The notes: a model not told the origin generated them from the letters alone. 64,000 nt of DNA from Vermamoeba vermiformis (GCA_045837725.1 JBEWZL010000126.1:62001-126000); one strand, 5' to 3'. Counted from the first letter of the stretch, positions 702-33,800 are shown. Numbers and translations: made by a program.

Positions 702-3700
702 ATGGATCAAGAGCCTGATATTGTGGCACGAGGTAAGTAGTGTCTCTCTTATTTACGAAGAACGGCATCTAATGGCAATTTTAGCTCTTATGGAGAATGC
801 AGACCGAGATGCATGGGTACAGGAGCAGAAAACAACTGCTGAATTGCTCGAGCACTTGGATTCGAAGCTCATTACCGCCGATCTCCACACGCACTTCATG
901 GGAATGGGAGATCACTCGTTCTGGATCGATCAAATCATGCGAAAGTACTTGTTCTCTAACAACGATAGACCACTGGAGTCATTGGAGTGGTACGGTCCGT
1001 TGTGCTTTCGCGAGTTTCCAACCCTCGAGATTATATTAAAGACTCCGGAAAAAGAAGGAAGCTATATTGCACAGTACGGCGAAGATGCCACAGTAATGGA
1101 GGTAAGAGCAACTACCGTAGGCTTACTGAGCTAATACATGTTTAGCTTCGTGACGGCGTTTATCACGCAAGACTTCATCCGACTTCGGATCCATTTACGT
1201 TCACTGTTCTTCATAACCAAATGGCAAAGGCATTTACAATACGCAACTGGGGCCTTTCTTCTCGCGTCGTGTGTGACTGGGGTGGAAATCAGCATATAGA
1301 TGTGGTATGTATCGGGTAAAATAAATTTAATCGTTTACCATTCTTAATTGTTGATAATAGGGCTCCAAGGACGAGAGTGCAAAAAATAAATGGCTGGATC
1401 TTGATTTGCGAGATCAAGATTGGAACGTCTACACGATGCTGAACTGGAAGGAATTAAAGCCAATACGGTTCTCCGCGCAACTAGTGGGGAACATTCTTCG
1501 AGCGTTCCGTGACAAAGAATGGCTCAATCTACCTTTGTCTACATCGTTATGTAAAAAGCTCTCGCGCACGTCAATGGATGCACCGCAGTGGGAATGGCAA
1601 ACGGCCCTCAATTTCACGACTGACGTAGTGTTCGACATCGACGCCTTGCGTGAATCGATGAATATAAAGCCGAACCTTGGACAAGACAATGTGGTTCACG
1701 AAATAATTGCACGTCTGGCGTTGAACCGAAATGGTAACAGTGCCCGTTACCTCAAAGAGTACATGTTCTTCAACGCGGCAACACAGCAATTCGACTATCA
1801 ATTGGGAATCACCAACACGGATCTGTGTTATCTCATGGAAGCACGCAGTGGGACAGAACTAGAAGCAAAGGCAACATTGGCTCAGATTCGCAACTGCTTC
1901 ACGATGCTCAACGTTGACGGCTCAACACCATCAAACTCTGATTTGGTTCATCGATTCAGACGCCGCTTCACACCCGAGTTCTATCCGATGCGCTTCAAGC
2001 TTCGTGACCCGATCTATGAGCAACATCCGTACACACTCACTCTTCTACTCAAGCATGTGTTGATGAGCTACGCGCAATCAAGAACAAGCTACATAGAATT
2101 TTCTTTGAGCTGGAAAGATATGACTACGCCTTGGATCTATCAATACTTGGTCCATAACTCCGTTTGGAATACGATACCTGCGGGTACCGGCGGCAAGATG
2201 AAATACAGATTTCTGCTAGGAATTTCTCGCACTCTTGTCAAGCTTCCAATTGACGGAGAGTTAAGAAGAGCTACAAGTACCGAAGCACTGGACTTGTTAA
2301 TCAAAGAACCATACACTGCGATGTCACATTCGCTGAATGCTGAAGCCTATTCGGATTTCACGCCCATACTTCATAAGCTGAAGTCCTTATTTCAAATGCT
2401 GCTGCAGAAAGACGACCGTAATCGCGGCGTTCTGTCTACCGTCGTTGGTTTGGATCTGGTTTCTGAAGAGCTTGGATTTCCATACTGCCCGTTCATTCAA
2501 GACGAATGGCTCGATTTGGCATCAAAATTCAAGCTTGGCATTCGCTTGCATTGTGGCGAAGGTGTCATTCGAGAAGAGAAAGGTCGAATTGCAAAGGCAA
2601 TGTACGCACACATGTTCATCATGGCATTGGCAATCCGTCGCATTTGTGCTCGAGGAATCAAGTGCAGAATTGGTCATGGTGTTGCTTTTCAAGACTGCAT
2701 CATCAAAGAACTGACGGAAAAGAAGAAGAACTACGAGCGAGTTCCCTCATCGTTTGACGTGCACATTCCCGATGGCACTAGGTCTCTCACTCCATTCTTG
2801 GCTCTCATCTCCGATCTGTTGGTTGAAGTGAACATCACCAGCAACTCTTACCTTGTTCAACATGCAAACTCACGTACTTTGATCAATTCCATGAAGAGTT
2901 GGCTTCTCTGCACTGATGACGATGGTGTGTGGGCACCTCCGCCTTGTGCGCACGACCACAAACTTCAAGCACGAGAATACTGTCGTGCAATATCAATGGG
3001 CTGCATTGAATTGAAGGACTTAGAGAAGGCGGGAAAAGAACACTGGACGAGGTTTCGCTTCAACCACTCAACTTTCGAACAAAAAGAGATTCTAAAGCTA
3101 GAACACACTTGGACGTGCAAGGTTCAACATCCTCGAGCTTACGCTGCAATAGCGTTGGCATTATGCAGTCACCAAATGCTTTTGAAGTATGACACTCTGA
3201 ACGCTCTTGGTGTGATCGAACTTCTTCATTCGTTTGGCTACTATGATGGCTTTGAGAAATTTGCGGCAACAATTAAATCTGATATATTGTCGCAAATAAT
3301 GAATCCTCGACAACAATTTGCCAGCAGCGACGTCAAAATTCAATACTTCGTCAAACTACTGAACCCTGATGGGACATATTATGGCCTACTGCGCTCGTTG
3401 TTCCTTGGATGCGACGAATGTCTTCACTTAATTTGGTACGAAAGAGCTATTCAAACTCTTTGTGAGCAACGAGCTGAATTTCCTGTGCCACCTCTCATGC
3501 CTGGCGATCCAGTAAACAATATTCACGAAGCTCGAAGAAATCAGGCAGCCAACACAATAGATGCTGCAAATCAAGTGTTGGATAAGATTGTTTCTTGGAT
3601 AACGAGCATTCAACAACACCAAGAAGTGAAGAACAATCAGAATATTGTTGATTGGATGCAGTCACGTGTATCACTTGTTTATCAGCGAGGTCGTTCAGAA

Positions 3701-6498
3701 ATGGAATATGGACAAAAAGTTCAGCTTTCGCACTATGAAGCTCCTCGACGTGCTATTGAAGATCACAATTACGAGAAGGTATTGCAGCAATGGACGAAAA
3801 GGACAAACAGTGACTGGGAAACACTCGTGAAGAACTCCCAAACAATCAAGGAGCTTGAGGGACTGGTTCTCTGCGACGCAAAGTACTTTAAACCAAATTA
3901 TGAGCCGATTGACGAACCGAGCTCATTTTTTAACATCATTTGGAACACCCAAGATTGGTACATCCGTCCCCTGCCACCAAGCTACTCTGGAGACTATGCA
4001 CACGTTGTTTCCGCGGATTTAGAAGGGTTTCATACTATAATTAGAGCAGAGGACCGAGTTCCCGTCGTATGGTACAACGCTGCATTATCCATTGCAAAAC
4101 GCCTCTACAAGAACAATCCCCGAATCATTCGCATCGCAGGTGTTGGCTATTCAGGATCAGCCATTGCAGTTCTTGCTGGAATGATGATTGCAACGGAAAT
4201 GCGTCACCAAGAAGTGGCCGACAAAAGATCAGTGTCGAATGAAGTTATTGTCTGGACTTATGGTGGCAAGCAGTTTGGCTCGAAGTCTTTCCACAACAAA
4301 GTTCACAACTTGTGCCCATACAACTTGGAAATCACTAGGTGGATAAGCTTGCACGATACTGTCGCAAGAGACGAACAGAACAAGGACAACCTTTACGCAG
4401 CACCTTATTGCGTTGACAAAGATCTTGTGGTCTATCCACTTGGACCACCAAGGATTATGTCCTGGGAGCTGCGACCATCATGGCACTACTTCACGTTGAT
4501 GCTTCATCACCTTCCTCCGTGCATGGAATTCCGCCATCAAATAAGAAAACCGAACGAAATGAGCATCTTTTTTGCCGATGACAAGCGAGACCTGAAGTCT
4601 CTGGCCCAGTCTCTCTACTTCCCCAACTACACGCTTGTGTGTACACACGAAGGTGACCACAATGACTATGGTCCGCTTACAACCAAACATACGGTCACCA
4701 CTCCGAGAATTGCTCCATACGCGTGGAAATGGCACCCTCAACAACGCAAGACATGGAAGAATGTCTTTGATTTGGCACCAGTTCAAACAACGATGCGACT
4801 TCTTGGTGATTATCTCCGAGCAATAATGGCCTTACCAAAGAACACTATTATTTCACCTTCGGAGACCCAATGCGACATTGTTAGCTTCATTACGATGTCC
4901 CCGAGAGATTTGAAAGACTTGAACGATGAAATTGCAAAGTTTGCGACGCGTTTGCCAAGCACTGGCACCAAAACGCTACCTTTCTTCATGGACTTGATGA
5001 ACCGACGAGACAGTTTCGAGGAAGAATATTGCTTACTCTTGCTGGACTTCATATCCGTGTCAGAAAGAGATTCGCACGTTTCGACAATCTATCAAAAGCT
5101 GGAGAAGTCATATTCCACAGAGAAGTCGAGTCTGATTAAAAGCTTCCGCCATCCAGAGAACAATTTGATTACCAACCTCGAGATGGTGCTCTTCGTTCTC
5201 CGAAATTGCAACATTAGCAACCCCTTTTTGCACGGCATCCTCGATCAGTTGGACAACATGATTGATGAATTATCAGCACCTATTGACGACAACACAGTCA
5301 AGGCTAAAATACTCAAACTGCTTCTTCGCGGATCGCTGAAAATGCGCGACAAGTGGCAGTCAAACGTCGTCGATGCCAAGTATTATTCGGCGAAATACAA
5401 GAAGCTATTTGCTGCCGCCAAAGTTGGGTCCTACAAGTACTTTGATTTGGCGTTATCTCTTCACTTCCTGGACGGTCAAGACAACACGCAAATGATCGAA
5501 GCGGCACTGCAACGACTTTGGAAAGTAATAGATTGGATGACCAGACGAATGGACCAACGACATTTTGCTGACGTTTCCGATTTGTGGAAGTACAAGCTTG
5601 ATCGCGTTGACCAAGCCATAAGCTTTTTGAGCAAACTTAGCACTCAAGAACCAACTGAACGCAATCGCTTGGATGCAGTTCAATTTGCGAACCCTGAATT
5701 CACATATATCTACCAAGTCGTATACGCGAAGTTCAAACTTTTTTCATCGCCAAATCAATCGAGTCAAATAAGTAAGGCACTCTTTGCTCTTCTAATTCGA
5801 TTTTAATCAAATTTACAGAAGTTTGGACGAAGCTAAAAGAAACTATCGATCAGTGGTGTGCTCTGAACAATAGAACGCATCACGTGCTTTTGGCTGATAC
5901 GATTTTTGAATACATCCAAAATCTTGGTCAATCACTGCCAGCAGAAGAAATGGAGAAGCTACGCACCGTTTGCAAAGACTTGAGCAAAACCTTGAAGCCA
6001 ATGAAGGATGACAGTATGGCCCTGTGGGTGCGAGCAGCGTTGCTTTACCAACTTGGTATGATCAAAAGAAAAGCCAAATACTTTGTGAAGGCTGTGAACA
6101 TCTTCTCAACGCTGTGGGAAACTGGCATGCACCCGAAGGACAGATTTTCCGTCGCTTTAAACGCTGCGTGTTGCTTGGCGAGAATCGGAGATGACGGTCA
6201 CATAGCACAAGCAATCTCTTGGATTGGTAACTTCTTCGACGTGTTGCGAATTGCTGACGACATGGACCGTCGAGTAGCACTCGATTGGTTCAAAAAAGAA
6301 TTGGAAAGTGAAGCGGGCGATTTGAACAACAAACTGCTCAAACAATTAATCAAGCCGTGGTTCGATGAAACAAAGTCACACTTTGACAAATCTTCTCAAG
6401 CTGAAGCTCAGGAAGAGTATGAATTAGCCGAAGTTACTGTCACTCGCGAGTGCGTCGTTAATACTAATTATAAAGTTTGTTCTTTTTTTCCGGAATAA
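702..6498 (+). CDS. Large spliced protein: adenosine/AMP deaminase domain + class-3 lipase-like domain + helical/TPR-like C-terminus
   Basis: ATG 702; in-phase GT-AG introns 733-784, 1102-1145, ~1305-1360 and 5772-5818 join ORFs 598, 1406 and 5884. Deaminase motifs DLHTHxxG, YIEFS, VVGLDLV, LHCGEG, RIGHGV, VEVNITSN, CTDDDG. Lipase-3-like IAGVGYSGSAIA...VWTYGGKQFG...RWISLHDTV. TPR-like ALNAACCLARIG. A further small 3' intron (stop near 6552) is possible. Confidence 0.8.
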
Positions 6499-11803: not shown

Positions 11804-13841
11804 TTAATTTACCGTGGCCTCGTCACTAATCACTTGCACAGGACCTTGCGGAGTTTTCGTGCGGAGTATAATGATGCATTGGCCGTCGCGCATTTTAATG
11901 TCTTCAGGCCTAATTTTCGTTTTATACAAATTGGCGTTCGGCACTTTGATCGTACGTTCAAATTGCCCTCCGGTCCGTTCTCTTGAGAGCACAGCCAAGC
12001 TATCGGCACCCCCTCCGAATTCCTCAAGAATATTTTGATGGATCAGATTCAGATCTCTTTGGCCTTTTATGAAATTAGAATTGATTTTTTAAAATTCTTC
12101 GTATTACAGCACATACCCCTCAGAACAATCGTTCGAGTGGCATTATCGTACTCAACGCTCAGCTGAGTGCCTGAATTAGGTCTGCTACTGAACCCGGGTA
12201 TATCAACGGCTATAATTAAATTTTGATTCGCTTCGTTTGACTCGGGCTGCAGGACATCGAACTACGACGAGTGTAAGTAGATTGTTATCGACAAATATTA
12301 ATGACTTTTGTACTTACTAAAGGCTCAAAGCCTGGAGCAGTTCTAACCCAAATAAAGTGACCATCAAAGTGTACGTCAGATTTTCGCAATCTTAAGTTGC
12401 CTTGCACAAGAAGCACGTTTTCGTGGTGGATCTCGTCTCGCCTTGGCACATCGTCATTTTTTCTGGTCCAATCTGTACACGTCATATTAATAAACCATAG
12501 GCGATATTATTAACTTAATTTACCATAACCGAATGCACGTCTTGGATTTTCATTGACCGGCGCGTCATTATTATTATTGTTATTATTGTTCATTTCAAGG
12601 TCAATATCAACGCCGCCCACTTCAGCTGGATTAGCGCCAATGTCAATTCTTTGGAACGAGACTGTTTGCACTTCAGCAAGGTACTCCTCGAGGCAGTTCT
12701 TCGCGTTCGTCAGAATCATGTCGGTCAATGATTTTCTGTCGCCTTGTGCTTGCGTCAACAACTTGGAGCGAAGCCAGTCAAACACCTTGTTATTCCAGTT
12801 TGACCCAAATTCCGTGGCGTGATTGGCAAGGCAGACGTGATAAATGTTCGGTTTGACTGCGTGTGAATTGGAGTTTTCTCCTTTAATTCGTAAAGTCATC
12901 ACGGGCACATCCGGCGCTGTTTTTTCGTAACAAGTACGACCGTCGTAACTGCCCAGCACAAATTTCTATAAAAAAGAATTAGAATCAATATATATATAGC
13001 AATGAATTAATGTCTTGCTTACCGACCAGCGCTCATAAGTTTCTTCGGCGGTGTTCGCGTCTTTGTAATTATGAATTACGTAGATCTGCGTCGGCAACTT
13101 GCGAAGCTGTTGAACTCGGTGCAAGATAGTATCGAGCAACTCTTGGTCGTTGAAAGTGAGTTCATTGAACACCAAAAGAATTACGTCGGAGAGCGCGATC
13201 TGAAGGTCGGAGATGAAGTACTCGAGTGCTTTTTTGTTGGCCATGTAGTGCGCCAATCAGGTTGACTTAACAATCCAGCAACAGCTTTAACATCGTTAAT
13301 AATTGGACGAATATATAGTACGAAGTAACTTACATCCTCGAAGCGGACTGTTTGTTCCGGATGTGTCCAAGTAAATCACGTTTGAGTTGTCGTTATCCTT
13401 GGGACATAAGAAGCTCAAGCCTTTCGTTTGAATTTTGCTACCACATGGCAACAATGTTTCCGCGAGCTGATTTATAATAAAAGTTTTTCCGCGATCGAAT
13501 CTGCCCATAATCGAAACAATATTTGGAGGGTCTTTAAAATATTGATCGATTACTCGACATAGCTCTCTATTCGGATTTTGACTCGCTCGTTCACGAAGCC
13601 ACGGCGAAATCGATACAGGCCATTGTAGACTTAGTCCGTCGCAGATGTTGTTAATGTCGATGACCAGATCGTAGTCCGTGGACTTTCTTTCTTCTTCTGA
13701 ACTAGCAGATGATTCTTCTTCGATATCGTCTTGCTCTTGGGCGAGGTTGTTTTCCAGCACAGGTGGGTTTTCATTCTGGACCAACTCGACGTCATTTCGT
13801 ACTGGATTGTCGTTTTGTGCGCGAGTGAGTACGTTGCCCAT
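11804..13841 (-). CDS. P-loop GTPase with C-terminal HSP20/alpha-crystallin-like domain; possible N-myristoylation
   Basis: Start MGNVLT. G1 MGRFDRGKT, G3 YLDTSG, G4-like VIHNYKD. C-terminal IIAVDIPG...GQFERTIKVP...MRDGQCIIIL resembles HSP20. Exons are joined by short GT-AG introns. Confidence 0.72.
12566..12591. repeat. AAT/AAC trinucleotide run encoding poly-Asn in the GTPase gene
   Basis: cattattattattgttattattgttc on the + strand; MNNNNNNNND in ORF 12510-12959. Confidence 0.8.
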
Positions 13842-14112
13842 TTGTGCTGCTATAATAAAGATTTGTTTAGATGTTATGGACAAAAAAATCGTTTTTAAGC
13901 TTTCTTTAAAGAATAGAATCGTAGCAATTCTTAGTTAATGTTATTCTTTTAGATTCACAAAGAATACAATACGCACTTTTTGTGTCTAGATCGAGTCAAA
14001 ATTAAATTTAAATCACTTACTCCGCTAGCGGGCCTTGTACCCAGCCTACATTTTTGACTCTCACTGTTTTCCGCCGTATTGCTTCCGGCGTTTCAGGATA
14101 TTTGCACGGTAA

Positions 14113-14690
14113 GACTCAGCCATAATTGTCGCTAGCAGCTTGTTAAGAATTAATAAAAGTAAGTAAGTTAATAAAAAATTAAGAGATGCGATTTTTGTCA
14201 GGCAATATTACCTTCTTAAAACCCGAATATTATAATTTGGAATAATTGTGCGCTTATAATTAATCAAAAATATTATTTTTCCTTTTTTGTTTTCGAATCA
14301 ACCTACCTCGATCTGGGCAGCTGCGATGCATGCTTGCAAACCCTAATTGGACGAATATATATTATCATTCTTCAAATTGGACTTTTGGGTGTCAGTTGTG
14401 GTGCTGAATACGCAATTTTATCAAACACGCCGAGATGCGAAATTCAGAATTGAAGCTCTCCCTCGTGCGATTATCCTCAAAACCATATCATGATATAGAA
14501 TGCTATCTGTATTGCAGGTCTACGCATTATGAATGAATTTGCACGATGAGGATTTGATAAATTGAGTCAACTCAAACTCGATCTTCTTTCTCGTGCAAAC
14601 TGCTTTATCCGCCACCACTTGTCGTACCATAGGGTATATCGTCTATGGATGCAATTTGGGCGAAATCGCACGATGAGGAGGAGCGTCCAA
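14113..14690. repeat. Diverged ~550-bp non-coding direct repeat, copy 1 (upstream of the GTPase-HSP20 gene)
   Basis: Colinear exact blocks shared with 19549-20100, e.g. TAAGAATTAATAAAAGTA, CGATCTGGGCAGCT, CAGTTGTGGTGCTGAATACGCAA, ATTATGAATGAATTTGCACGATGAGG (copy 1; differs at its first base in copy 2) and TTGATAAATTGAGTCAACTCAA. Confidence 0.9.
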
Positions 14691-14802
14691 ATTTGATCTA
14701 GTCGTAAATAAAGACCCGCGAACAAAAAAAAAACAGTCGTGGCTGTATTTACTATTTACTGTATCCTATTGTTTTCGACATCTCGAACTGCGATCTTTGC
14801 TT

Positions 14803-17800
14803 TCAGTCCAGACTTCCGTCGGTAGTACTAGCAGATTCAATGAGAGATTCATCCTCAGCACCCGCGTCTCTATTAGAAGGCCATACGGACAACCAATGAT
14901 TGTTGTTGACATAGGCCAACACCACAGTCTCGTCGTGCCTTTTTTCGTGAGGACTGAACTTGAGCGGTAACAATTCGCTGAAGTTATTGGCGACGTAGTA
15001 CTCGAGATCCACCCTTTGAACGAACAATTAAAACCTTTGTTTGCGATTGGGACCAAGTCCAACTTACCCAAACATAATGGCAGCAACCATTGCAAACTCG
15101 GATCCGCACCAACTTTTCGGCGTTTTATGCTCCGTTGCCCATTTTCTGGCCTTCTCCTCGTTGTCAAAGTAGGGAGCAAGTTCATCGTACGTAGAAATCA
15201 ACATCCAATTCTTCTTTGCAAATTCACAGATCTCTTCTCTAAGATCGTCCTGGTCGCCGTCAAACAGCAGCATCTCTTTGAGATGATCCAACAAAGCGTA
15301 CATGAGGCAGTCACCGTCAGCTAGATTATCTTGCACTCGGAGATGTCGTCGTTTCAACTCTTGCACGGTACTTTCATAGTTGGAAAAGGCTTGAATTGCT
15401 GGGGTGACGAATGACGATGAAAGAGTGACGAGATTGCCCAACGACATTTGTGAATTGACAGGCTCAACTGAGTCAATCTCCGGAGCACGCTTCATCACCT
15501 CCGTTACTATATTGATCGTTAGTAAGTCACTCATATTACCAAATGGTATGAACGTACTTTGACCTTTCTTAAATCTCGTTTTCGGAGACCAAGTGAACAG
15601 ATAGTTCTGTAACTGAACGAAGCCACAATCACGAAAAATTTTGGCAGCATGTTGCTCGCGCTTCTTGTAGTGATCGATCCACTTTGCTGCTCGTAGCGTC
15701 GTTTTTGGGTTGGCCTTTGAACTACCTTTCTTCGAGCGAACTTCTCCAAGGTTTGTCGGAATTGTCATTCCATTCAAAAAGTCATTGGGCGGGCAAAACG
15801 ACAAGTTGTACAGCGCGTCAGTGCGGTAGATGACAGGTCCTTGAATAGCATAGCCGCCAGGTGGAAGCACGCCCATGTACATCGGCCACTTTTTGAAGTT
15901 GTGGCGGTACGTGTCGATGTTGACCTTGCATGAGATAGCCACTAATGATTGAAGGACTGCAAGTTGATATGCCAGCTGCTTGACAACGTCCTCTAATATC
16001 GGTTGTTGTGCTTGCGGAAAAAAATCAACGAAGTGGGGTTGTTTCTGCAAAAAGTGAACCAACGTCTCCAAGTGCGACACTTCCAACTTTCCTTGATCTT
16101 TTTCGAGCTTGATATTTTTCAAGAAGGCAAGTGCCGTGATATATGGGGTGCTGTCGTCAATGTCCATTCTTCTTACGGCCAACATCAGCAACTTTTCGTT
16201 CTCTTTGATGACCTCTAGCGACTTCTGCCACAGCTCGGTTTCAAGTTCAATCAAGAATGATTGGGTCCACATCAAGGCACGGGCTGGTGTGCATTGACGC
16301 AATCGAAGTACCAATAACTTGAACTCCGAGAAGGCTTCAACATTGTCAGGCACTCGTATGATGTATGGGATCTTGAACTGCGTTGCAATGAGGCGGATGG
16401 ATTCGAAGTAAATGTCGAGTTCACTGTTGTCAGGCACAACGCTGAAAATGATGTCTAACTTGCTTGGGAGACACAACTGGGAAACTTTTGCGTAGTGTGA
16501 ACGATACATGTCAAGCTGTGACTCTTCTACAACAAGCGTGATCAAATGCTCCATGTCACCTTCCAAGCACTCAAAGTCAATTCTTTTCTGTCGTACTAGG
16601 CACCCGTGCTCATCAAAGGCTTTAGAGGGAATGAATAGGCAAAGCCCTCCCTTGCCTTGATGATTGCGCATCTTGTTCGCAATGTTCTCGAGCAAGCCTT
16701 TGACACGAGGTGACAGCACCATAGTGACTTGCTTTGACTTGACATCTCGCTCGAAGGTAATCACATCATTCTCTTTGCTAGTCGTCTTAACTTCTTGGAG
16801 CTAAAAGTCAATTAGTAATGGTTTACCAGGAACATTGTCTACGTACCTGCAGAACTTTGCCTTTAAAAGCAGGTGCTTGGCTGGAAACTTTCTGATAGAT
16901 CTCGCCAATGATAGAGTCCATGACTGTTTGATGCTCATTTCCAAACAGCCCAGTAAGCGGGTTTTCAGCACTTTGGCGACTGATCTTCTTTGCTACCATA
17001 TCAAGTCGGTAATTGGCGTTTTGGAACCACTCCAATAGAATCTTCCTCCATTGGGCAATCAGAGACTTAGTAGTCTCGAGAACACCCTTCGGAAGACTGA
17101 TCTCTTTGGCCAGCGAGTCGGTGATCTGCTGACACACTTGCCTGAACGTATCTTTGCATATTTCAGGAATGCCGTAGCTCTTCACTTTGTCTCGTATCAG
17201 TTGCACAAGTCGATCGAGATGCTCAGCGCTTCGTCGTTTGATCCACGAAGAGATCAGATCTGTGAGCTTCATATCGGACAGCTCGTTTGAATGGATAGGC
17301 ACGACACAGCTTTGAGAGTATATGGCGTCCATTTGAGCAATTGAGAATTCGAGTAAGGGGTTCTCTGTTGCGCCTTTGGTTACACCAAGTTTCTTCATCA
17401 GATCTTGCAAGTAACGCTTTAACAGTGTCTCGCCGTGGCCTCTAATCCGTCTTAGCAATGCCAGCGTCTTTTTCAAGCATAGGTTACTCATGGATTCAAT
17501 GGCAGTTGCACGAGATTGCTGATCCATCGACACTTTGGAGTAGTAGTTCTGAGCCAACTTCTCCAGCCTTGAAACCAAGTCCTGAAGTTCAGAATCTATC
17601 ACAGGATCGAACTCCGCGTTGAGCTTGCCTTCGTACACGTTGACCTTGTCCTTGATGCCCTTGGATGCCTTGCCGTCAGTAGTTCCCATGACGTTGATAG
17701 CGAACAACAAGCTGCAGGCGCCACGAACTATAACACGCACTGAGTTGACACGAACGCCGTCGAGAATCTTGGCAAACAGGCTTTTGCGTGCCTCTGCCGA

Positions 17801-19338
17801 TGTGAGCATGGTCTCAGGATGGATGATGATGACACGTGCTGCAATGTCACCGAGGAGCGAAAGTCGCATGATCGGGTCGTAGTCAGTCAAAAGGTCCGTG
17901 TCGTCCGCTGCAGCCATAATCATTTCCATTTGTCTGTCTTCTTCTTCTTGTAGAGTAAGTTGACTGTCCGCCTTAGTGACCACACCAATCACAGGCAGTC
18001 CACGTGCCGGGTTATCAAACACGCCTTGACGCTCCAAGAACTTCAAAGACTCAGCGGTAAGCAACGTCGACTTGGGCAGCATGATCATGTCAGCAGTGCT
18101 AATCTCCTTCTTGACAAGTCCTGCTTGAAAAGACGATGATTCGGCCAAGCCCATCGTGTCCACCAGCTCCAACTTCTCGGGCATGTCCCACGGTCCGTGG
18201 ATCTCCATGTGGTCGATGGCAAGGACGATGTCAGCTGGCACGGAGGCATAGTTGAAGTATCTGCTCCAGTTACTAACTTCTCCAATTGACTTGAGCCTGC
18301 GGACTACATTTGATTCTCCAAACTTCAACGTGACATTGAGCTGCTCTAAAAACAGTTCATCGCGCGTCCCACCTCTCTCTTGATAGGTCGCCAAAGGACA
18401 AGTCACAGCAAAGATGGTAAACTCTTGTGAATCACTTCGTTTCAGATGGTAGTTGAAACATGTTAGCGAAGTCACTTTGTGTTGCACATCGCGGTTATCG
18501 AGTGGCAGCTTGCCCCAGTCATTGATTCGTTCAGCCCTTGGCAGCAAGGCAATCTTGTTGGCAGCAACACTTTTGCCACTGCCAGGCTCGCCGATCAAGC
18601 AGATCTTTGGTTCGTGATCTTTCATTTCACGAGCGATCTTGATTAAATCTTTGTTTCGCTAGCAAAGAAATACATTAATATAATGAATGTTACATACAGT
18701 GCCTAATTAAGAGCACTTACGCCGTCCAAAAAAGTGCGCTGTGACTGATGCACTTGCGGTGACTCAATAATTGTTTCGCACAATTTGTTGCACTCGTTAA
18801 CCAAGCCATGAACTTCGTCTGCATTAACGAACACACGGTCGCAAAACTTGAAGTCCCGTTGAACTTTTTGCTTCTTTTGCGGCGGAGAATCCAATTCTGC
18901 ACATGAATTTCTTGTAAATATTATTTCTAGGCAATTCGCAACTAAAATCTATTTACCTTGGTCACTCGAGGTCGATCGCCTTTTCTTTTGCTGACTACCT
19001 TCAAAATTCTGAAACGAATCTGGATCTATTTCTTCAAGTACGGCGTGCAGAAACCAATTCTTGAATGCAGAATTATTCTTTGATTTAACAATATCAAGCA
19101 GTTTGAGCACTCCTTGTACGCTAACAAAGGAGCCCTTGTGGCTTGAGATTTTTGTTGAGCAATTTGACGGCAGCGCTTGTAGGTGTTGTCGAATATTCTT
19201 TAGATCGAGGATCTTCTCAAGATCTGGAACGTAGAAGCCAAGGCATTGACCACTCCCCTTAATTTTCAGGAGAGTGTGCTTTGACAGGTTCAACGGCGGC
19301 GTAAGTGTTTCTGAAATGAAGTTGGTGACTGTTGTCAT
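14803..19338 (-). CDS. Multidomain protein: Bro-N-like + NLS + dynamin-like GTPase + GREB1/TAGT-like glycosyltransferase fold + OTU deubiquitinase
   Basis: Five exons joined in phase (introns ~18956-18897, 18720-18659, ~16846-16801, ~15067-15014). Bro-N-like FYVPDLEKILDLKNIR...FVSVQGVLKLL..KSKNNSAFKNWF; NLS PPQKKQKV; GEPGSGKS, LVDTMGL, VVTKAD; LFIPSK...LVVEESQLDMY...YIIRVPDN; OTU ADGDCLMYAL...WCG...NNHWLSV. Confidence 0.78.
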
Positions 19339-19548
19339 CCTCGTGTAAATACGTATCGAATAAAATACGTATTCTCCGCCGCTTTTGTTGCTGATATTTT
19401 GAAATCTCGCGCGACTTTGTTCCCGCTCACAATCTTAAGTTGCATCCGAATCACCAAGTTGCTGCACTCAATCGAATCCATTTTCAGGTGCAGAAAATTG
19501 CTGCAAAATGGATAGTAAGTGATTGAAAATGGAAGTAGGGACAGGAAA

Positions 19549-20100
19549 GAGTCAGCCACAATCGTAAGAATTAATAAAAGTATTGTGGTAAAGAGATGCG
19601 TTATAGTATAATTGCTAATCTACCTTCTTAGAACCAGATATTATAATTGAAATTATTGGGTGCTTATAATAATAATTTAATCACGAATAAATATTTTTTC
19701 CCTCGAATCACTTACTACTTCGATCTGGGCAGCTCCGATGCAGCTTGCAAACCCTGATTGGGTGCACATATATTTAACATTCCTCAAATGGGACATGAGT
19801 GCCAGTTGTGGTGCTGAATACGCAAGTTTGTGAAAACGACTTGATGCGGATTTTTGAAGCTCTCCCTCGTGCAATTGTCCTCAAAAACGTATAATTATAT
19901 AGAATGCTATATGTATTGCAGATTCCCCTATTATGAATGAATTTGCACGATGAGGGATTGATAAATTGAGTCAACTCAATCCGCACTCGATCTCCATTCT
20001 TTCTCGTGCAAATTGCTTTATCCGCTGCCACTCGCCGTATCATATGATAGATTAACTAATTATGAAATTTGGTCAAAATCGCACGATGAGGAGGCGCATG
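19549..20100. repeat. Diverged ~550-bp non-coding direct repeat, copy 2 (upstream of the Bro-N/GTPase/OTU gene)
   Basis: Alignable by eye with 14113-14690 in the same orientation. Confidence 0.9.
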
Positions 20101-20920
20101 TCGCGTCCATCTTTTCATCATTTGATCTGATGACTCGACCACAACTGGTTTGACAATGCGATAGAATTCATTTTTATTTACTTTTTTATATATTAATGAT
20201 TGCACTCTGTGTAAAGACGATAGCTGTTGGAGATGCAAGGCGAGATTTAAAAAGCTCAATGTTAAAGATGAATTCTAAGCCACGCAAATATAATTATCGT
20301 TAAGCAATTAAATATATACCACTATTTTATTCCCTTTTGAGCAGTGCTGCGCTGCAAGACTGGCCAATGGAAGAAAGATAACCTTATGATTCGTCCGCAA
20401 TTTTCTAAAATTATAAGACTGTCGAATTATTGCATGGTATGTTCCAGCATTTCACCGACAAACAACGGCGTAATTTTGAAAATGACTAAAAATTTCCATC
20501 TAGCCGCCGGCGAGAGGAAACTAGCCAGTACAGCTCGATTCGCGACAATAAGGCCAAGTTGCAAGATTCAAACGTAAAATGAAGTAAGTGCACGTGCTTT
20601 GATCAAGTTTTTAATCTCGCGGGTCACGGATGGACTTCAGCAAGAAAATTCCGCGATTGCACTTTTGCAGTTAACTTTGCTTTTCAACGATTAATGATGG
20701 GTGCATATTTAGATCCAGCTTTTGATTCTTTCATTTTTCTGGGTCTCGAGATTGAACCAATTCGCCTTGCACGAGCGGAAATTTTGCTTGCACGCCACCG
20801 AACGTTTGACGAGATTCCCGTAGCATGCCCGGGATTTGCCGCCAATAAAAGCTGCTGGTTTGTATCATTAATGATTTAATTTTATTTACGGTAACACAAC
20901 AGCAGTTCGTCGAAAGCCCA

Positions 20921-27867: not shown

Positions 27868-30800
27868 CTAAAGGTCGCCAAACAGTGAATGAAGGTCTGA
27901 ATAGTTGTAGTCACGGATCATGTCACGCAATGTCAACAGACTGTGAAGCAACTTCGACGGCTTGCTGGCGAACAAGCGAAGGTGATTCAGCACTGTGGTG
28001 ATTAATTTGATCATTGAAGCATTATGAGGTCCTGATGGAGGCACCAAATCGTCACGTTCTTCGACGAAACCGTTGTGTTTGTCAAGCACTGTTGCACGAC
28101 ACAACGCGTTCCATGTCTCGTGCCACTTGTCAGGAGACAACTCTATTCCAACAATAGTTTGATCGATGAAGTCCATCTTGTCAGGAACGACACTGAGAAG
28201 CATCATGAGTGCTGTCTTCTCTTGTTTGTAATAGCTCAAGTTGCCGTTGAGCAGTTTGAGCAGTGTGATGCATCGATGCTCGTCGTTGTTCGTGCCATGC
28301 ATGTAGCGTAGATGATGAAACTCCGCTATTGAATTCTTTGACTTGAGGAACGTGATCAATTCATTTGCTTCGAAGAGCGACACGAGAAGAAAGTGCGTCT
28401 TGGTGCCGTTGAATTTGATGACAACATCGATTGGTCGAATGTAGTTGGACAGCATGTGTGACTTAACTGTTGACAAGAAGTTCTTCGTAACATAGATGTT
28501 GTTGATTATATCTGCCCTTTCGAACGCTCTGTTATTGCTCCATTCAGCGTCCAAAATTGTTCCGAAAAATATGTTCTTAATTGGCAAAACTGGCAAAGTA
28601 GACATGGCATCAAAGTGCGTGACTCTATCAAACGGCCAGGATCCCTCCTCGTTAGGTTCGACAAGGGGAGGTAGCTCTCGTTGTCGCTCCTCTTCGACTT
28701 CTTGTTGGAGTTCTCGTTCGTACTCTTCATTCACACTGCCAGAAATACGAGCTATCTTGCCAGTAGGAACAAGTTTGCAAGCGTGATTGATCAGATTGTC
28801 GTACAGAGGACGCGCTTTCTCGGTGAGCTGATATTCTTGACCAATCTCTCGACCCAACAACTCGCTCTTTGTTCTCGTTCCATGTTGATTGATGTGATCT
28901 TTCACGTTCACGGACTTCAACGGAATGCCGTACATGTCTTCTGTTGCAAGTACCTCTTTTAACACCACCGCTTTGATGATATCTGTAGGCGTTATTGATG
29001 GGCTCGAGTGAAGCAAGTCCAATGCCATTGCTGCTGCATAGTGATGGAATCCTTGTGATGCGTATGTAATGATCGCCTCTTCTTGTGCTTTGATTGTGTT
29101 CTCAACGACCCATTCAAGGATATGAACACTCGTTATTGTGTCCTCAGTGAGTCCCTGATTGTGACCCATTTGTTGAATCTTCATCGTGACTTCTGATGTG
29201 CCCCAGAACGTCACATTGTGCAGCCCAACAACAAGCTTTCTCATGCGCATGCACGCTTGCATCAGCTTGTCTTTTGTGATACCCGTTGCAACCGTAACGA
29301 ATGCATGAGACTTTGTTGGGAATGGCAAGTCAGTGCCTCGAGTGTGAATGTCATCCAAGTACGTGAAGCACGAGTGCTCAAGCGGTCGACTGCTGCTCAG
29401 CTGAGTGCTGTTGCCATGTCTGTCGATCAATGCCAATCTGTTGGACTCGTCAAAGAAGATGCCTGTCTGAAAGCGAGGACAGATCTCGAGCACTTTCACA
29501 ACAACTTCACGGTTTGACATGCCCTCGATCAGTGCTCCACTATCAATCAGAACATTCCAGTTGTCGTGACTGCACATCTCTTGCAAGATTCTCTCTGACT
29601 CGAACTCTTTTGGCAATGACTTGTATTGACGATTGTTGAACTTCTCGTTGGTCAGAACGTCAATCATTTTGCCGTTCGTTGACTCCACTGATGGAAGTGC
29701 CACTTGTCTGACGTACAACGGAAGAGTGTGTTTGGTGTCATCGGTTCCCGAGAACCCAACAACCTGTTCGCTAGTAAGTATGTTTCGTGAATGAGCAGCA
29801 ACCTACCTTATCAGCGCTCTTTGCAAGGTCCCAAGAGTTTGCAATGATCTTTTCTGGGAATGACCGCGTGCCCAATGGAAGAACGAAGCTGTCAAGATAG
29901 TATGCAATCACTTCGTAGTTACGACCAAAGTACAGTGTCAAATGCTGTGCAGGTATTAGTAAGTTACTCTTCAATTAGACGGCCTACTTGCCTCCATCAA
30001 GTTTACGTTCTCGACGTTTACCGCTTCGATCTTCTCAAGCAAAGTGACATACTTCGCGTTCATAATTGGCTTCGAGATCATGTACCATGTGCGATAGATC
30101 TCTCGCTGTTCGTTGATTCCTTTCGTTTTCAAGTACACAAAGCATGATTTGACAGCTTCTGAGTCGATTCCAGCGCTATGTGCCAAGATCGTGAGAGTGA
30201 TGGCCATGTCAGGTTGACCGAACTCCACTCCATCTGCTGGCGTGTCTTTGCCTCTGAACGGAACTGCCATTGGTACTGCCCTACGCTTGTCGATACCATA
30301 GTGGATGCGATGACGCTTCATCAGTGATGCCTTGAGCACTTCAAATGATAGCAATCCACGGAGCACGAGCACAGGTACTCTGAGTGACTTGTCAAGCACC
30401 AACTTGTTCTTGAATGCATCGCACTTCTTATCGCCGTCAGGAGTGTCAGGATAGTTGTTCAGCACGAAGTCCTCAACTTGCTTCAGCTCGTCAGGAGACT
30501 TTCCTTTTGCAATCCGTAGCCAAACAGGATCAAGTTGAAAGACACTAAATAGACTTGCTCTGAATGCCTCGAAAAAGTCTTCGTTGATTAAGCGAATGAC
30601 AGGAAGCACGTGCGGCTCCCCTACCACCGGATGAAAGATGAAGTGTGCCGTTGATGCTTTCATTGCGTTGTATAGCTTCTCGAGCTTTGATGGTCTGTCG
30701 CAACTGCTGTCAAGATATCTGCCGGGGACAGCATCCCTGTTCATCTTATACAAGTTGGCCATGAAGATGCATCGAACAAGTGCCAAATGAACATGCCATC

Positions 30801-33800
30801 GCGAGCTGCCTCCTTCAATCAACTGTTGATCACCAAGTGTGTAGATCAGTTGGTACTTGTGACGAAGAATCTCATCGCTCTCATCAAGCAGTTCGAGAAT
30901 TGGTGCATCGATAATGCCTATGTCAAATATAATTAGCCAATATTAGATCAAAATACACCATTACCTTTGAAATTCTCAACTGCCAAGCCATTGCCTTGCT
31001 TCGGGTAAGTGGTCTGCCTTAAGACTTCTCTGTATTTGAGTTGCATGCTCAAGCGATGCTCTGGAGTTGACAATATGATACCACCATGAAGCTTGCATTC
31101 TTCGAATTGCCTTCGCAACTCATCCATTGCTTGAGGCGTTAAAGGCACATTGCGTTGAAATGGAAATAAATAGATTCGCTTTCCAAGCATAGTGCCAAGT
31201 GCAAGTTTAAGATAGTTGTGAACTTCTTGAAATAGTGACGGCAGTACGTTGACTCGAACGAGAGTTTGTCCGTTTGCCAAAACACTGCATAAGATCGGAA
31301 CAATCACTTTCGACTTGCCTTCGCCCATGTTCAACTGAAGAACGATGTTCTTTTCTTCAAGCATCTTTGCTGCAATCTCCACTTGGATCGATCGAATGCA
31401 CACTCGTCGCTCCATCTCGAAGATGAGCCATTCAGGGTGTTGACGCGGACTCCACTCTCGCTTGTCTGACAACTCTGCAAACAGTTGCGATTCAAATCCT
31501 TGGCGATCGCCCTCATCGGTAAGTGAGTTCAAGTCGTTCAAGAGCTCAATAATTCGTGCCAGCTTGACGAAATGAACCTGATGGATTGCGAAACGCAACG
31601 CTAGTTCATGCAAAATATTGGCATCTTGGAGGCAAGGGTTGATCGCATGATATTGATAGCCGTTCTTGAGGAGCGAAGGAATTATGCGAGGATGAGGTCT
31701 TGTAAGTAAATTCGTCATCTTCCATAGGTTTAGCAGTGGAAGGTCAACGCTCGTCAAGACCTGCACTATCTCCGACCAGATTCTGTTGCGCTTTTTAATA
31801 ATTTCATCCTTCAAATTGACGTAATTGTCTAAATTCATGTCAATCTTTGGCGTTGGTTGCTGTGAATAAATGTGCTTTTGGTAGCTATCTTTAAGCTCGT
31901 TGACAATCTTAGACTGAATTTCTGCGCTTCCTTCGATTGACTGAATTTGTAACGGAAAGTCAACTGGCTTCGCTTCTCCTTCGTAAACGTTGAGAAGCTC
32001 TTGAATCTCGTCTAGTTTGTCATTGAGTGCCCTTCTTTCTGCTGCCTTCGTTCTATCTTTTGCTATTGAACTTAGTCGCTCTAAGATCGCCGATTCTTCT
32101 AATTTAAGCGCGTTAATATCTACTGACGGCTTAACCTGTGTACTGGCAAATTCGTAAGACGCTCCAAGCCTTTGCTCGAAGAATTCCACTCCGCTACAGA
32201 ACTTATTCAGCGGTTCTAACTCCAAGTCCATGACATCAAGATTGATTGCTGGCCATGTAAACGTCAATTGCCGAGAAGAGCTGAACGAAACTGTCTCTTT
32301 CAACGTAAAGGACGAAGAATTGACATTGACGGGCTTGGCAAGTTCATCAAGATAGTCCCATAATAACCGCCCGAGTAACCGAGTGTTGTGCAAATTTTTC
32401 AGCCTCTTCAAAAACCTGGTTCGCCACGTAACGTTGAACGAACGGAAGTAGTCCTCTTTCTCTTCAAATGATGACAAAGGGCAACCGTTCTCGTCCAAAT
32501 AATTGCTAGCGTAGATTTTCCAAGCTGCTTCCTTGTTCTGCGATGTGTCATCTCGAGGAATTAGTTGTCTGAAATCCTCCTCATTGACAATTCCATAGCA
32601 GCGAATAGAACTGCTCTCCAGTAAGCGGCGGTCGGGACGCACGAGGTTTGGCGTTGTCATTGTGCAATAGATACACTGCAAAAGCACCAATTCAGTCGAA
32701 TTTTTTAGCAAGGCATTGTGAGCCAAGAAGGTCAAATACGTCAGCACTTCATCGGGTTTTCGGTGCTCCAGCTGCTTGATAAACCAGAAAAACATTTGTT
32801 CGTTGCCAGCCTGTCCCAAAGCCTGCCATTCTGAAGGAAGATTGCCTACAAACGGCGATATCGTTACTTCCTGAATATTGCATTAGTACTCTAAAATGCC
32901 TTGATTTAATTTCCGTTTGAAACCTACCCTATTGAAGAAGTGTCTAATTTTGAATGAGGATGGCAACGTTTCTTTCGAAAAAAATATTGTCGGAACGTTG
33001 GTGAAGTATTTGCCAGGCGAGTAGCTCTTATGGACTAGATATGTCTTAAGATAACGTTCAATGCTCTCATCCAACGTTGCTCCGGCAGGTAAAAGATGCC
33101 TTGTCTTGAAGTACTTCTTCGCTTGGTCGGCAATGAAATCTTCATCTATTTTGATTATCTTGGCTTCACCTTGCGGGGTTAAGAATAACAGCCTCGTTGA
33201 TTCAGAATAGAGATGATATACAAGGAGCTTGATAGAGTAAACCATCGGCGAGTATTCCTTCAAGTTCAGAAGATCTTTCATGGCCTCTACCTCTGCGACA
33301 GAATATAAATTGTTCTGCCAGCATTGATGAAGCAAATAGAGTGCTTGTTGTAGTCCAGTAGTCTGAGTTAAGGGATCTATGGTGTATGAATACTTCGCGT
33401 AAATATTTGCCAAAACTAAGCGCGACAATGTCGTTGATGGTATCAAGCGCTGTTGTACGTCGTCAAATTCGTACGGATATATTTGGTCTTCTCTGGAAAT
33501 CAAGACGATGGGTAACTTCGTGCTGTGGGCGCTTGCAGGTTGAATATACAAGTATCTGGAGAAGAGTGGAAACGTTGGTACCACTTGGACATCAGCGAGT
33601 TTGTAGCCCGGGTAATTGTCTGAAATGATTTCTCCGCTCTCTTTGATCGTAAACGTCAAATTGAACTTCAGATAGGTTACTTGGCACTCTTTCGGTGAAG
33701 ATCTTGTACAGAGTATGTTCTCCACTTTGTCAATTCTGTACAGGACCTTCATTAAGCTGACTAAACGGTCATCTTTGGCATTCAGCAGCTGATTTCTCTT

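What the first reader, a model, noticed from the sequence alone, without database searches (positions are those of the whole stretch)
14803..19338. Bro-N + dynamin-like GTPase + TAGT/GREB1-like glycosyltransferase + OTU in one nuclear-targeted protein
Seen: motifs for four unrelated domains in one in-phase spliced ORF of ~1,440 aa with an SV40-like NLS. The OTU Asp/Cys/His residues look intact; the glycosyltransferase-like DD motif reads PDN and may be inactive. Known: Bro-N is a DNA-binding domain typical of phages and large DNA viruses, TAGT/GREB1-type enzymes include DNA base glycosyltransferases, and dynamin-like GTPases are common antiviral effectors. Inference: a nuclear antiviral or conflict protein that might sense modified or foreign DNA.
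Basis: partly seen in the sequence, partly recalled or inferred. Interest (0 to 1): 0.78.

Follow-up and report, generated by a model that had tools for sequence, protein, structure and literature searches.

The report
Bro-N, GTPase and OTU fusion gene
A real five-exon eukaryotic gene encodes a 1,437-residue protein that joins a virus-type DNA-binding domain, a large GTPase, an unclassified middle domain and a ubiquitin-type protease, but the claimed DNA-glycosyltransferase identity of the middle domain could not be established.

Summary
The gene is real. Five minus-strand exons (19338..14803) are joined by four GT..AG introns of 46-62 nt and give one open 1,437-aa frame. In DNA contigs of another run, 30 of the 32 listed in-CDS differences are synonymous third-position changes. 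Domain calls differ in strength. All four Pfam family matches (Bro-N, GTPase, TAGT, OTU) are below Pfam's curated cut-offs. Bro-N is probable: Pfam E 0.0027, PHROG Ant E 0.0023, and 12 of 30 Atlas hits are Bro-N clusters. The P-loop GTPase with G1/G3/G4 motifs is certain. "Dynamin-like" is only indirect, through the distant homologue P0012, which passes Pfam Dynamin_N and has the same GTPase + middle-domain order. OTU is probable: a family profile finds viral and human OTU structures at E about 0.002, and the Cys and His are present. TAGT/GREB1 is not established. Support is one short sub-threshold Pfam stretch, seen only in close relatives. It was not significant against a phage TAGT profile, the DxD equivalent is not conserved, and both AF2 models were too poor to test the fold. 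No RNA evidence could be obtained. Best reading: a rare, lineage-restricted, GTPase-centred conflict-type protein with an OTU effector. It is a new architecture built on known domain kinds.

The parts
14803..19338 (-). Whole coding gene model: 5 exons, 1,437 aa, about 163 kDa, no transmembrane-like segment
   Evidence: In-phase GT..AG introns. 30 of 32 listed in-CDS variants are synonymous.
18957..19338 (-). Exon 1 (aa 1-127 plus the first base of codon 128). The Bro-N-like domain is at about aa 38-108 (19015-19227). The first basic cluster, KKRR, is at aa 118-121 (18976-18987).
   Evidence: Pfam Bro-N E 0.0027, 18.7 bits (cut-off 25.6), profile 17-95 of 96. PHROG 2899 anti-repressor Ant E 0.0023. 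Atlas: 12 of 30 hits are Bro-N clusters, score 0.93.
18721..18896 (-). Exon 2 (aa 128-186), a linker with PPQKKQKV (KKQK at aa 135-138, 18865-18876). With KKRR it gives a bipartite-NLS-like pattern.
   Evidence: Sequence reading only. No homologue or RNA evidence for this exon.
17849..18658 (-). Exon 3, first part: the GTPase domain. G1 GEPGSGKS at 18569-18592, G3 DTMG at 18149-18160, G4 TKAD at 17966-17977.
   Evidence: Motifs. Pfam MMR_HSR1 E 0.003. hhalign to the Dynamin_N-bearing N-terminus of P0012: E 3e-6, probability 88%, 319 columns. The best PDB profile hits are GTPases, through the P-loop only.
16847..17848 (-). Exon 3, second part: about 330 aa after the G domain, presumed to be a helical stalk.
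   Evidence: No family match. Strongly conserved in P0001 and P0002. That it is helical is inferred, not modelled.
15550..16722 (-). Exon 4, aa 27-417 of the exon (protein aa 817-1207): a family-specific middle domain made of an alpha/beta part, a helical bundle and a beta/alpha tail. The weak TAGT-like stretch lies at 16384-16560.
   Evidence: Homologues are P0003, P0013, P0014, P0005, P0006 and the C-terminus of P0012. Pfam TAGT 16.5-19 bits against a cut-off of 27.5. AF2 pLDDT 52, with only the helical bundle confident.
15068..15402 (-). Exon 4 C-terminal part: the N-terminal half of the OTU domain. The Cys1288 codon is at 15307-15309.
   Evidence: Pfam OTU E 0.017-0.1. Family profile against PDB: nairovirus-type L-protein fragments at E 0.0021 and OTUD3 at E 0.0028, with the Cys aligned. 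AF2 pLDDT 80-95 here.
14803..15013 (-). Exon 5: the C-terminal half of the OTU domain with NNNHW (His1407 codon at 14896-14898), an acidic tail and the stop codon.
   Evidence: Sequence reading. On its own it matches no family or PDB OTU.
19703..20097 (.). Upstream copy of a roughly 400-nt direct repeat, 365 nt 5' of the ATG. Possibly a promoter block.
   Evidence: 81% identical to 14293-14684. Only two copies in the window.
14293..14684 (.). Second copy of the repeat, just 3' of this gene and about 450 nt 5' of the neighbouring GBP-like GTPase gene.

Best explanation
This is a functional, lineage-restricted eukaryotic gene for a 163-kDa soluble multidomain protein. Its conserved core is a large P-loop GTPase with a long C-terminal extension, followed by a family-specific Rossmann-like/helical middle domain. 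This core also exists, fused in the same order, in the distant homologue P0012. In this lineage two accretions were added. One is an N-terminal Bro-N-like domain with a basic NLS-like linker. The other is a C-terminal OTU cysteine peptidase with its catalytic Cys and His. Most likely mechanism (inferred): the Bro-N domain and basic linker take the protein to the nucleus or to DNA or a partner protein. GTP binding and hydrolysis drive a conformational or oligomeric switch, as in dynamin/GBP/Mx-type GTPases. The switch controls or positions the OTU domain, which removes ubiquitin or a ubiquitin-like modifier from local targets. The middle domain is a ligand-binding or regulatory module of unknown specificity and is probably not an active DxD-type glycosyltransferase. 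Overall this is a GTPase-centred conflict or immune-type protein. Shown: the gene model, the selection, the GTPase motifs, the OTU Cys and His, the core architecture in P0012, and the rarity. Inferred: localisation, oligomerisation, deubiquitinase activity and biological role.
For: Gene model and constraint:
- In-phase GT..AG introns give 1,437 aa.
- 30 of 32 listed in-CDS variants are synonymous.

Fusion of GTPase and middle domain:
- P0012 (1,040 aa) passes Pfam Dynamin_N (28.9 bits, cut-off 27).
- Its N-terminus aligns to our GTPase profile (hhalign E 3e-6, 319 columns).
- Its C-terminus aligns to our middle domain (BLASTP 2e-11; whole-library E 5e-4).

Upstream exon: the 11 residues of exon 3 before its first Met are conserved in P0002 (7 of 11 identical). 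In the window an in-frame TAG sits directly upstream. So an upstream coding exon is needed.

Bro-N.

OTU. GDC is invariant in 7 of 7 rows.

Context:
- The adjacent gene is GBP-like (22.8 bits, cut-off 21.1).
- Both genes have a homologous roughly 400-nt upstream block.

Rarity: 10 proteins at E<=0.001 among 1.84 billion representatives for exon 4.
Against: - No transcript evidence. Three RNA runs carrying the same species label laid 1, 0 and 0 reads on 8 kb. This is no test either way.
- Exons 1-2 have no homologues in hand, so the Bro-N fusion rests on splice phase and on the argument for an upstream exon.
- Our own GTPase does not hit Dynamin_N at E<=10, and the PDB profile hits cover the P-loop only.
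- The OTU acidic residue is not at the usual His+2 position (the sequence reads H-W-L), so activity is unproven.
- The function of the middle domain is unknown; both AF2 models have pLDDT about 50.
- Gene neighbourhood means little in eukaryotes.
Confidence: 0.5

Rival explanations
1. The middle domain is a true TAGT/GREB1-type GT-A glycosyltransferase, active or turned into a sensor. The protein then recognises or modifies hydroxymethylated, glycosylated or foreign DNA in the nucleus.
For: - TAGT is the top Pfam hit for the window protein (E 0.0081; 0.0014 for a 160-aa piece), for P0013 (98% identical) and for P0014 (79% identical), always over profile positions 24-58/65.
- hhalign against six phage TAGTs, including T6 beta-glucosyl-HMC-alpha-glucosyltransferase (Pfam TAGT 39.4 bits), picks the same register.
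- By eye, FIPS / HL..VVEESQ..Y / VVPDN resemble VIPS / PHLVVRESQ..Y / TIPDD of phage TAGT. P0003 has PDD at that site.
- The secondary structure of the poor models is beta-alpha-beta.
- Lead only: the His-to-acidic-motif spacing (39 residues) is near GREB1's H1609-D1645 (passage in PMC7968844). No alignment was made.
Against: - All scores are below the cut-off (16.5-19 against 27.5), and only about a fifth of the model is matched.
- 3 of 6 family members (P0003, P0005, the P0012 C-terminus) give no TAGT hit at E<=10.
- hhalign gives E 0.17 and probability 0.4%, and against T6 ggt alone E 0.37 in a different region.
- Local hmmsearch in both directions does not beat 2,000 shuffles.
- In the aligned stretch only about 3 of 12 TAGT-invariant positions are identical. 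TAGT's DDD aligns to V-P-D-N here and to A-P-N and S-Q-S in P0005 and P0012.
- No glycosyltransferase appears among the 43 listed Foldseek hits, although the model is too poor to count.
Confidence: 0.2
2. There are two genes. Exons 1-2 encode a small Bro-N protein. A separate transcript starts in intron 2 or exon 3 and encodes GTPase, middle domain and OTU from Met-12 of exon 3.
For: An ATG lies 11 codons into exon 3, just before the first strand of the G domain. Gene callers started P0001 there. P0012 lacks any Bro-N. No RNA evidence joins the exons.
Against: The 11 codons before that Met are conserved in P0002 and are closed upstream by TAG in the window. The intron 2 borders are canonical and in phase 0. 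Intron 2 carries 3 listed variants in 62 nt, against 32 in 4,314 nt of CDS.
Confidence: 0.2
3. The gene is a captured or endogenised gene of a large DNA virus or mobile element. Bro-N and OTU are common in such viruses. It would then serve that element rather than host defence.
For: The nearest look-alikes of the Bro-N exon are phage and viral clusters. The best PDB matches of the OTU profile are viral L-protein OTUs. P0012 is a long intronless K/N/I-rich ORF. A roughly 400-nt direct repeat flanks the gene. A piggyBac remnant lies at 48338-48892.
Against: The gene has four spliceosomal-type introns and a GC content like its neighbours. No relative was found in IMG/VR with three queries or in phage records. 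The repeat copies are 81% identical, and each sits upstream of a host-like GTPase gene, which fits a promoter duplication better than element ends. No transposase or integrase lies inside.
Confidence: 0.1

Closest known systems
Dynamin-superfamily and other large immune GTPases (Mx, GBP, bacterial dynamin-like LeoA/LeoBC)
   Same: P-loop, DxxG and TKxD motifs. A long region follows the G domain. The distant homologue P0012 passes Pfam Dynamin_N and weakly hits PADLOC LeoBC (E 0.0022). A GBP-like gene lies adjacent.
   Different: Our own sequence does not match Dynamin_N or GBP. It carries Bro-N, an unknown middle domain and OTU, which I found in no described dynamin-type protein (paper searches found none).
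Bro-N / KilA-N-type domains of baculovirus BRO proteins and phage anti-repressors (Ant)
   Same: A sub-threshold but near full-length match to Pfam Bro-N (17-95 of 96) and to PHROG Ant. Atlas look-alikes are Bro-N and P22_AR_N clusters.
   Different: Here the domain is in an intron-containing eukaryotic gene at the N-terminus of a 1,437-aa enzyme. Scores are below the cut-off, and there is no tblastn hit in 50,697 phage records.
TAGT family (phage T6 beta-glucosyl-HMC-alpha-glucosyltransferase; GREB1 C-terminal GT domain)
   Same: A short beta-alpha-beta stretch with similar motifs and the same register in Pfam and hhalign.
   Different: The DDD (DxD) motif and most invariant residues are not conserved. 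The match is not significant against phage TAGT profiles. The domain is about 390 aa with a large helical bundle, against about 205-260 aa for TAGT.
OTU cysteine peptidases (nairovirus-type L-protein OTU, OTUD3, OTUD2)
   Same: The Cys-loop motif GDGDC / GNGDC aligns with the catalytic Cys region of solved OTUs. A His motif lies in the C-terminal strand.
   Different: The domain is split by an intron. The residue two after the His is Leu, not Asp or Asn. It is fused to a GTPase. Whether it cleaves Ub, ISG15 or another substrate is unknown.

Membership tests
Bro-N (PF02498) | Sequence match to the family model at or above the curated cut-off (25.6 bits) | tested here: not met
   18.7 bits, E 0.0027, but covering profile 17-95 of 96.
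Bro-N (PF02498) | Independent recognition by other libraries or methods | tested here: met
   PHROG 2899 Ant E 0.0023 over aa 37-108. 12 of 30 Atlas feature hits are Bro-N clusters at 0.93, and 1 is P22_AR_N.
Bro-N (PF02498) | Bro-N / KilA-N fold | not tested
PDB phmmer found none at E<=10.
Dynamin superfamily | GTPase motifs G1 GxxxxGK[ST], G3 DxxG, G4 [TN]KxD | tested here: met
   GEPGSGKS at 209-216, DTMG at 353-356, TKAD at 414-417. All are invariant in P0001 and P0002.
Dynamin superfamily | Match to Dynamin_N (PF00350) | tested here: not met
   No hit at E<=10 for the window protein. It is met only by the distant homologue P0012 (28.9 bits, cut-off 27), linked by hhalign E 3e-6.
Dynamin superfamily | Helical stalk and nucleotide-dependent G-domain dimerisation | not testable with these tools
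   No structure model of exon 3 was made. This needs SEC-MALS or structure work with GTP analogues.
TAGT / GREB1-type glycosyltransferase (PF20691) | Sequence match at or above the cut-off (27.5 bits) over most of the 205-position model | tested here: not met
   16.5-19 bits over positions 24-58/65 only. Hit in 3 of 6 family members, all at least 79% identical to each other.
TAGT / GREB1-type glycosyltransferase (PF20691) | Conserved acidic DDD/DxD motif after strand 4 and the G-I-A..R motif | tested here: not met
   DDD aligns to V-P-D(N). P0005 has A-P-N and P0012 has S-Q-S. G-I-A is not matched.
TAGT / GREB1-type glycosyltransferase (PF20691) | Profile-profile similarity to bona fide members (T6 ggt and relatives) | tested here: not met
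   hhalign E 0.17, probability 0.4%. Against T6 alone, E 0.37. hmmsearch did not beat 2,000 shuffles.
TAGT / GREB1-type glycosyltransferase (PF20691) | GT-A fold | tested here: inconclusive
   AF2 pLDDT is 50.7 and 52.4, and the alpha/beta part is below 60. Foldseek against PDB gave 0 hits at E<=0.001.
OTU (PF02338) | Sequence match at or above the cut-off (23.3 bits) | tested here: not met
   13.5-16.1 bits for the exon 4 half. The domain is split by intron 4 and the joined sequence was not submitted. Homologues P0007 and P0010 give E 0.011 and 0.061.
OTU (PF02338) | Catalytic Cys in the Cys loop and catalytic His in the C-terminal strand | tested here: met
   GDC is invariant in 7 of 7 rows. 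It aligns to GDGDC of a solved viral OTU. His1407 lies in NNNHW. No third acidic residue sits at His+2.
OTU (PF02338) | Similarity to solved OTU structures | tested here: met
   Family profile against PDB: 7y5m_A E 0.0021, 11ny_A 0.0022, OTUD3 4bou_A 0.0028, and more weakly 6dx2_A, OTUD2 7pl7_A and 11ns_A, of 13 listed. That the L-protein fragments are OTU domains is from my own knowledge.

The most novel reading that the evidence does not exclude
GTPase + stalk + middle domain is a previously undescribed, ancient but very rare eukaryotic or viral sensor module. Its Rossmann-like middle domain would be a degenerate TAGT/GT-A derivative or a CARF-like nucleotide-binding fold. It would bind a nucleotide-sugar, a modified DNA base or a signalling nucleotide. 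In this lineage the module has been wired to a viral-type DNA-binding head (Bro-N) and an OTU effector. The result would be a nuclear, ligand-gated, GTP-driven deubiquitinase that acts against DNA viruses or mobile DNA.
Probability: 0.12. Interest if true: 0.85.

Novelty: new variant of a known kind. Interest (0 to 1): 0.55.

Why it matters
If the model is right, it is a domain combination I did not find described: DNA-binding Bro-N, a large GTPase, an unknown Rossmann-like module and an OTU peptidase on one chain. It belongs to a family with only 10 detectable relatives among 1.84 billion representative proteins. It would add a case in which a large GTPase switch is physically coupled to a ubiquitin-system effector. 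It would also define a new GTPase-associated domain, conserved between this lineage and the distant P0012 protein, whose ligand is unknown.

Tried and rejected
- **Whole genome:** none is held.
- **Protein search, 'longer' class, exon 4:** no hit.
- **PDB by sequence:** exons 1, 3, 4 and 5 and profiles A1 and A4 gave nothing useful. The A7 profile gave P-loop-only hits.
- **Atlas with exon 4:** no usable hit.
- **PADLOC and NCBIfam:** nothing meaningful.
- **Related loci:** none in JGI metagenome contigs (2 scans) or in IMG/VR (3 scans). The genome-contig scan could not be run because the alignments were not conserved enough.
- **tblastn of exon 1 against phage records:** no match.
- **Transcript evidence:** RNA runs X13-X15 (same species label) laid 1, 0 and 0 reads on 12500-20500, so this is no test of transcription. 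Their small shares, and those of the water and soil metagenome runs, are not used as evidence.
- **AF2:** exon 4 (11-row alignment) gave pLDDT 50.7 and the middle domain alone (7 rows) gave 52.4. Foldseek against PDB on both gave 0 hits at E<=0.001. Several CARF proteins (Csx1, Can2, Csm6, VC1899) recur among the weak hits. I treat that only as a lead, because the model is poor.
- **Complex prediction:** G domain x2 with GTP returned 'no answer'. It is not evidence either way.
- **P0005 C-terminus as a degenerate OTU:** not supported (hhalign E 0.6), so it is not used as a fusion witness.
- **Relation of the neighbouring GBP-like GTPase to this G domain:** P-loop only.
- **Rfam and tRNA scans of the window:** none.
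- **Earlier findings of this scan:** none.
- **Literature:** searches for the architecture found no description of it. The Iyer et al. 2013 paper that defined TAGT is not held, so TAGT's defining residues were taken from passages of PMC7968844, from PMC13390438 and from my own alignment A8. I did not ask for supplementary files. fig. S3A of PMC7968844 may hold the GREB1/TAGT alignment.


Full report
**Gene model**

The window is eukaryotic-looking DNA: no whole genome is held for it, it has long ORFs interrupted by short introns, and its GC content is 39-47%. On the minus strand, five open segments join through four canonical GT..AG introns of 60, 62, 46 and 54 nt. The exons are 19338-18957, 18896-18721, 18658-16847, 16800-15068 and 15013-14803. 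Joined, they give 4,314 nt with no internal stop, or 1,437 aa. The protein is about 163 kDa and has no transmembrane-like stretch.

**Evidence that the frame is functional**

I laid DNA contigs of run X1 on 12500-20500. 40 differences were listed and 9 more were not shown.
- 32 of the listed differences fall in my CDS. Of these, 30 are synonymous third-position changes and 2 are non-synonymous.
- Three others lie in the 62-nt intron 2.

This is strong evidence of purifying selection on exactly this frame in exons 1, 3 and 4.

**Transcription could not be tested**

Three RNA runs with the same species label gave 1, 0 and 0 reads over 8 kb that include neighbouring genes. So it is unknown whether the five exons are transcribed as one unit.

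**Relatives**

The family is very small.
- Exon 3 finds P0001 (73% identical) and P0002 (64%).
- Exon 4, scored against 1.84 billion representatives, finds only 10 proteins at E<=0.001. They are P0003 (72%), P0005 (34%, 661 aa), the fragment P0006, six OTU-exon-like pieces (P0004, P0007-P0011), and P0012 (1,040 aa, E 5e-4).
- A profile search added P0013 (98%) and P0014 (79%).
- Nothing was found in JGI metagenome contigs, IMG/VR or phage records.

**P0012 supports the GTPase + middle-domain core**

P0012 is informative for three reasons.
- Its N-terminus passes Pfam Dynamin_N (28.9 bits against a cut-off of 27).
- Its N-terminus aligns to our GTPase profile by hhalign (E 3e-6, probability 88%, 319 columns).
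- Its C-terminus aligns to our middle domain (BLASTP 2e-11).

So GTPase + extension + middle domain is a conserved fused core, and that supports joining exons 3 and 4. P0012 lacks Bro-N and OTU, which therefore look like lineage-specific additions.

**Bro-N**

Exon 1 gives three signals:
- Pfam Bro-N at E 0.0027 (18.7 bits, cut-off 25.6), over profile positions 17-95 of 96.
- PHROG anti-repressor Ant at E 0.0023 over the same residues.
- Atlas look-alikes: 12 of 30 hits are Bro-N clusters at score 0.93, and one is P22_AR_N.

I rate Bro-N-like as probable (about 0.8), but below formal membership, and the fold is untested.

After this domain come KKRR (aa 118-121) and PPQKKQKV (KKQK at 135-138). 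This is a bipartite-like basic pattern, and its NLS function is inference only.

The link of exons 1-2 to exon 3 rests on three points: phase-0 canonical splice sites; an in-frame TAG immediately upstream of exon 3; and conservation in P0002 (7 of 11 identical) of the 11 residues before exon 3's first Met. Together these call for an upstream coding exon.

**GTPase**

GEPGSGKS, DTMG and TKAD are present and invariant in relatives.
- Pfam gives only the generic MMR_HSR1 (E 0.003) and P-loop families.
- A PDB profile search gives GTPases (Der/EngA, GEM, FeoB) through the P-loop alone.

"GTPase" is secure. "Dynamin-like" is plausible through P0012, the TKxD motif and the long C-terminal extension, but it is not shown for this sequence.

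**OTU**

The last 110 aa of exon 4 plus exon 5 carry DGDC and NNNHW.
- Pfam OTU is sub-threshold (E 0.017-0.1). The intron splits the domain, and I did not submit a joined sequence.
- A 7-row family profile finds solved OTUs first: two nairovirus-type L-protein fragments (E 0.0021 and 0.0022), OTUD3 (0.0028), then 6dx2, OTUD2 and 11ns among 13 listed. Our Cys aligns to GDGDC of the viral enzyme.
- GDC is invariant.
- The residue two after the His is Leu.

OTU is probable (about 0.85). Activity is untested.

**Middle domain and TAGT**

Pfam TAGT is the top hit for the window protein (E 0.0081, or 0.0014 for a 160-aa piece), for P0013 and for P0014. It always covers only profile positions 24-58/65 of 205, at 16.5-19 bits against a cut-off of 27.5. 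P0003, P0005 and the P0012 C-terminus give nothing at E<=10.

To test against genuine members I used a paper passage stating that T6 encodes a TAGT (PMC13390438).
- I located T6 ggt, the beta-glucosyl-HMC-alpha-glucosyltransferase, which scores Pfam TAGT 39.4 bits.
- I gathered five further phage homologues at 22-65% identity.
- hhalign of our 7-row profile against this 6-row TAGT profile chooses the same register as Pfam, but with E 0.17 and probability 0.4%. Against T6 alone it gives E 0.37 in a different region.
- Local hmmsearch in both directions does not exceed 2,000 shuffles.

In the aligned stretch the shared features are FIPS/VIPS, HL..VV.ESQ...Y and PD[ND]. TAGT's invariant G-I-A and DDD are not matched: DDD aligns to V-P-D-N here, to A-P-N in P0005 and to S-Q-S in P0012.

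Two AF2 runs gave pLDDT 50.7 and 52.4, with only a helical bundle confident. Foldseek found nothing at E<=0.001, so the GT-A fold is neither shown nor excluded.

I therefore do not file this domain under TAGT/GREB1. I put true but degenerate homology at about 0.35-0.4 and an active DxD-type transferase well below that.

Residues conserved across all lineages of the family point to a real pocket of unknown ligand. They are F846-I-P-S/T, H875, E882, S884, Q885, D887, P913-D/E914, C960 and R964.

**Context**

- Immediately downstream on the same strand lies a GBP-like GTPase gene (13841..12510; Pfam GBP 22.8 bits, cut-off 21.1).
- A roughly 400-nt block (19703-20097 and 14293-14684, 81% identical, only two copies in the window) sits 365-450 nt upstream of each of the two genes. 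This may be a duplicated regulatory region.
- Other genes in the window: a giant Lipase_3-containing ORF, a GMC oxidoreductase, two tandem DUF3638 giant genes and a piggyBac remnant.

**Verdict**

The architecture (Bro-N-like + large GTPase + unknown Rossmann-like module + OTU) is unusual and very narrowly distributed. The best mechanism is a GTPase-switched OTU peptidase targeted to DNA or the nucleus, of conflict or immune type (confidence about 0.5). The rivals and the decisive experiments are listed in their own sections.

Noticed in passing
window 14293-14684 and 19703-20097: A roughly 400-nt direct repeat, 81% identical, with only two copies in the window. On the minus strand each copy lies 365-450 nt upstream of a GTPase gene start (this gene and the GBP-like neighbour). 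It may be a duplicated promoter or regulatory block.
   Followed up: partly
window 12510-13841 (-): A neighbouring three-exon-like gene that starts MGNVLT... (a possible N-myristoylation start). Its P-loop region passes Pfam GBP (22.8 bits, cut-off 21.1). It shares only the P-loop with the target's G domain.
   Followed up: partly
window 19335-19481 (-): An upstream ORF of 48 codons whose TGA overlaps the main ATG (ATGA). An acceptor-like ttttgcag at about 19501 suggests a possible 5'-UTR intron. There is no RNA evidence.
   Followed up: no
window 27868-37274 (-) and 37998-47384 (-): Two tandem copies of a giant gene. One ORF carries DUF3638 (E 1.6e-50). The second copy looks more fragmented in the ORF list.
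   Followed up: no
window 1361-6498 (+): A very long ORF (1,481 aa plus a continuation) with a Lipase_3 domain in the middle (E 5e-6) and large unannotated flanks.
   Followed up: no
window 48338-48892 (-): A short ORF that matches only the C-terminal end of the piggyBac-type transposase model DDE_Tnp_1_7 (20.9 bits, just below the 22.4 cut-off). Probably a transposon remnant or a domesticated fragment.
   Followed up: no
protein P0012 (not in the window): A 1,040-aa K/N/I-rich intronless protein from an unnamed 13.7-kb contig. It has Dynamin_N plus the same middle domain and no Bro-N or OTU. Its organism (AT-rich protist or large virus) is unknown, and it has no relative in IMG/VR.
   Followed up: partly
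model m7c356430c201 (window 15550-16722): Among the weak Foldseek hits of the poor middle-domain model, several CARF-domain proteins recur: Csx1-Crn2 at E 0.009, plus Csx1, Can2, Csm6 and VC1899. None is significant, so this is a lead only.
   Followed up: no
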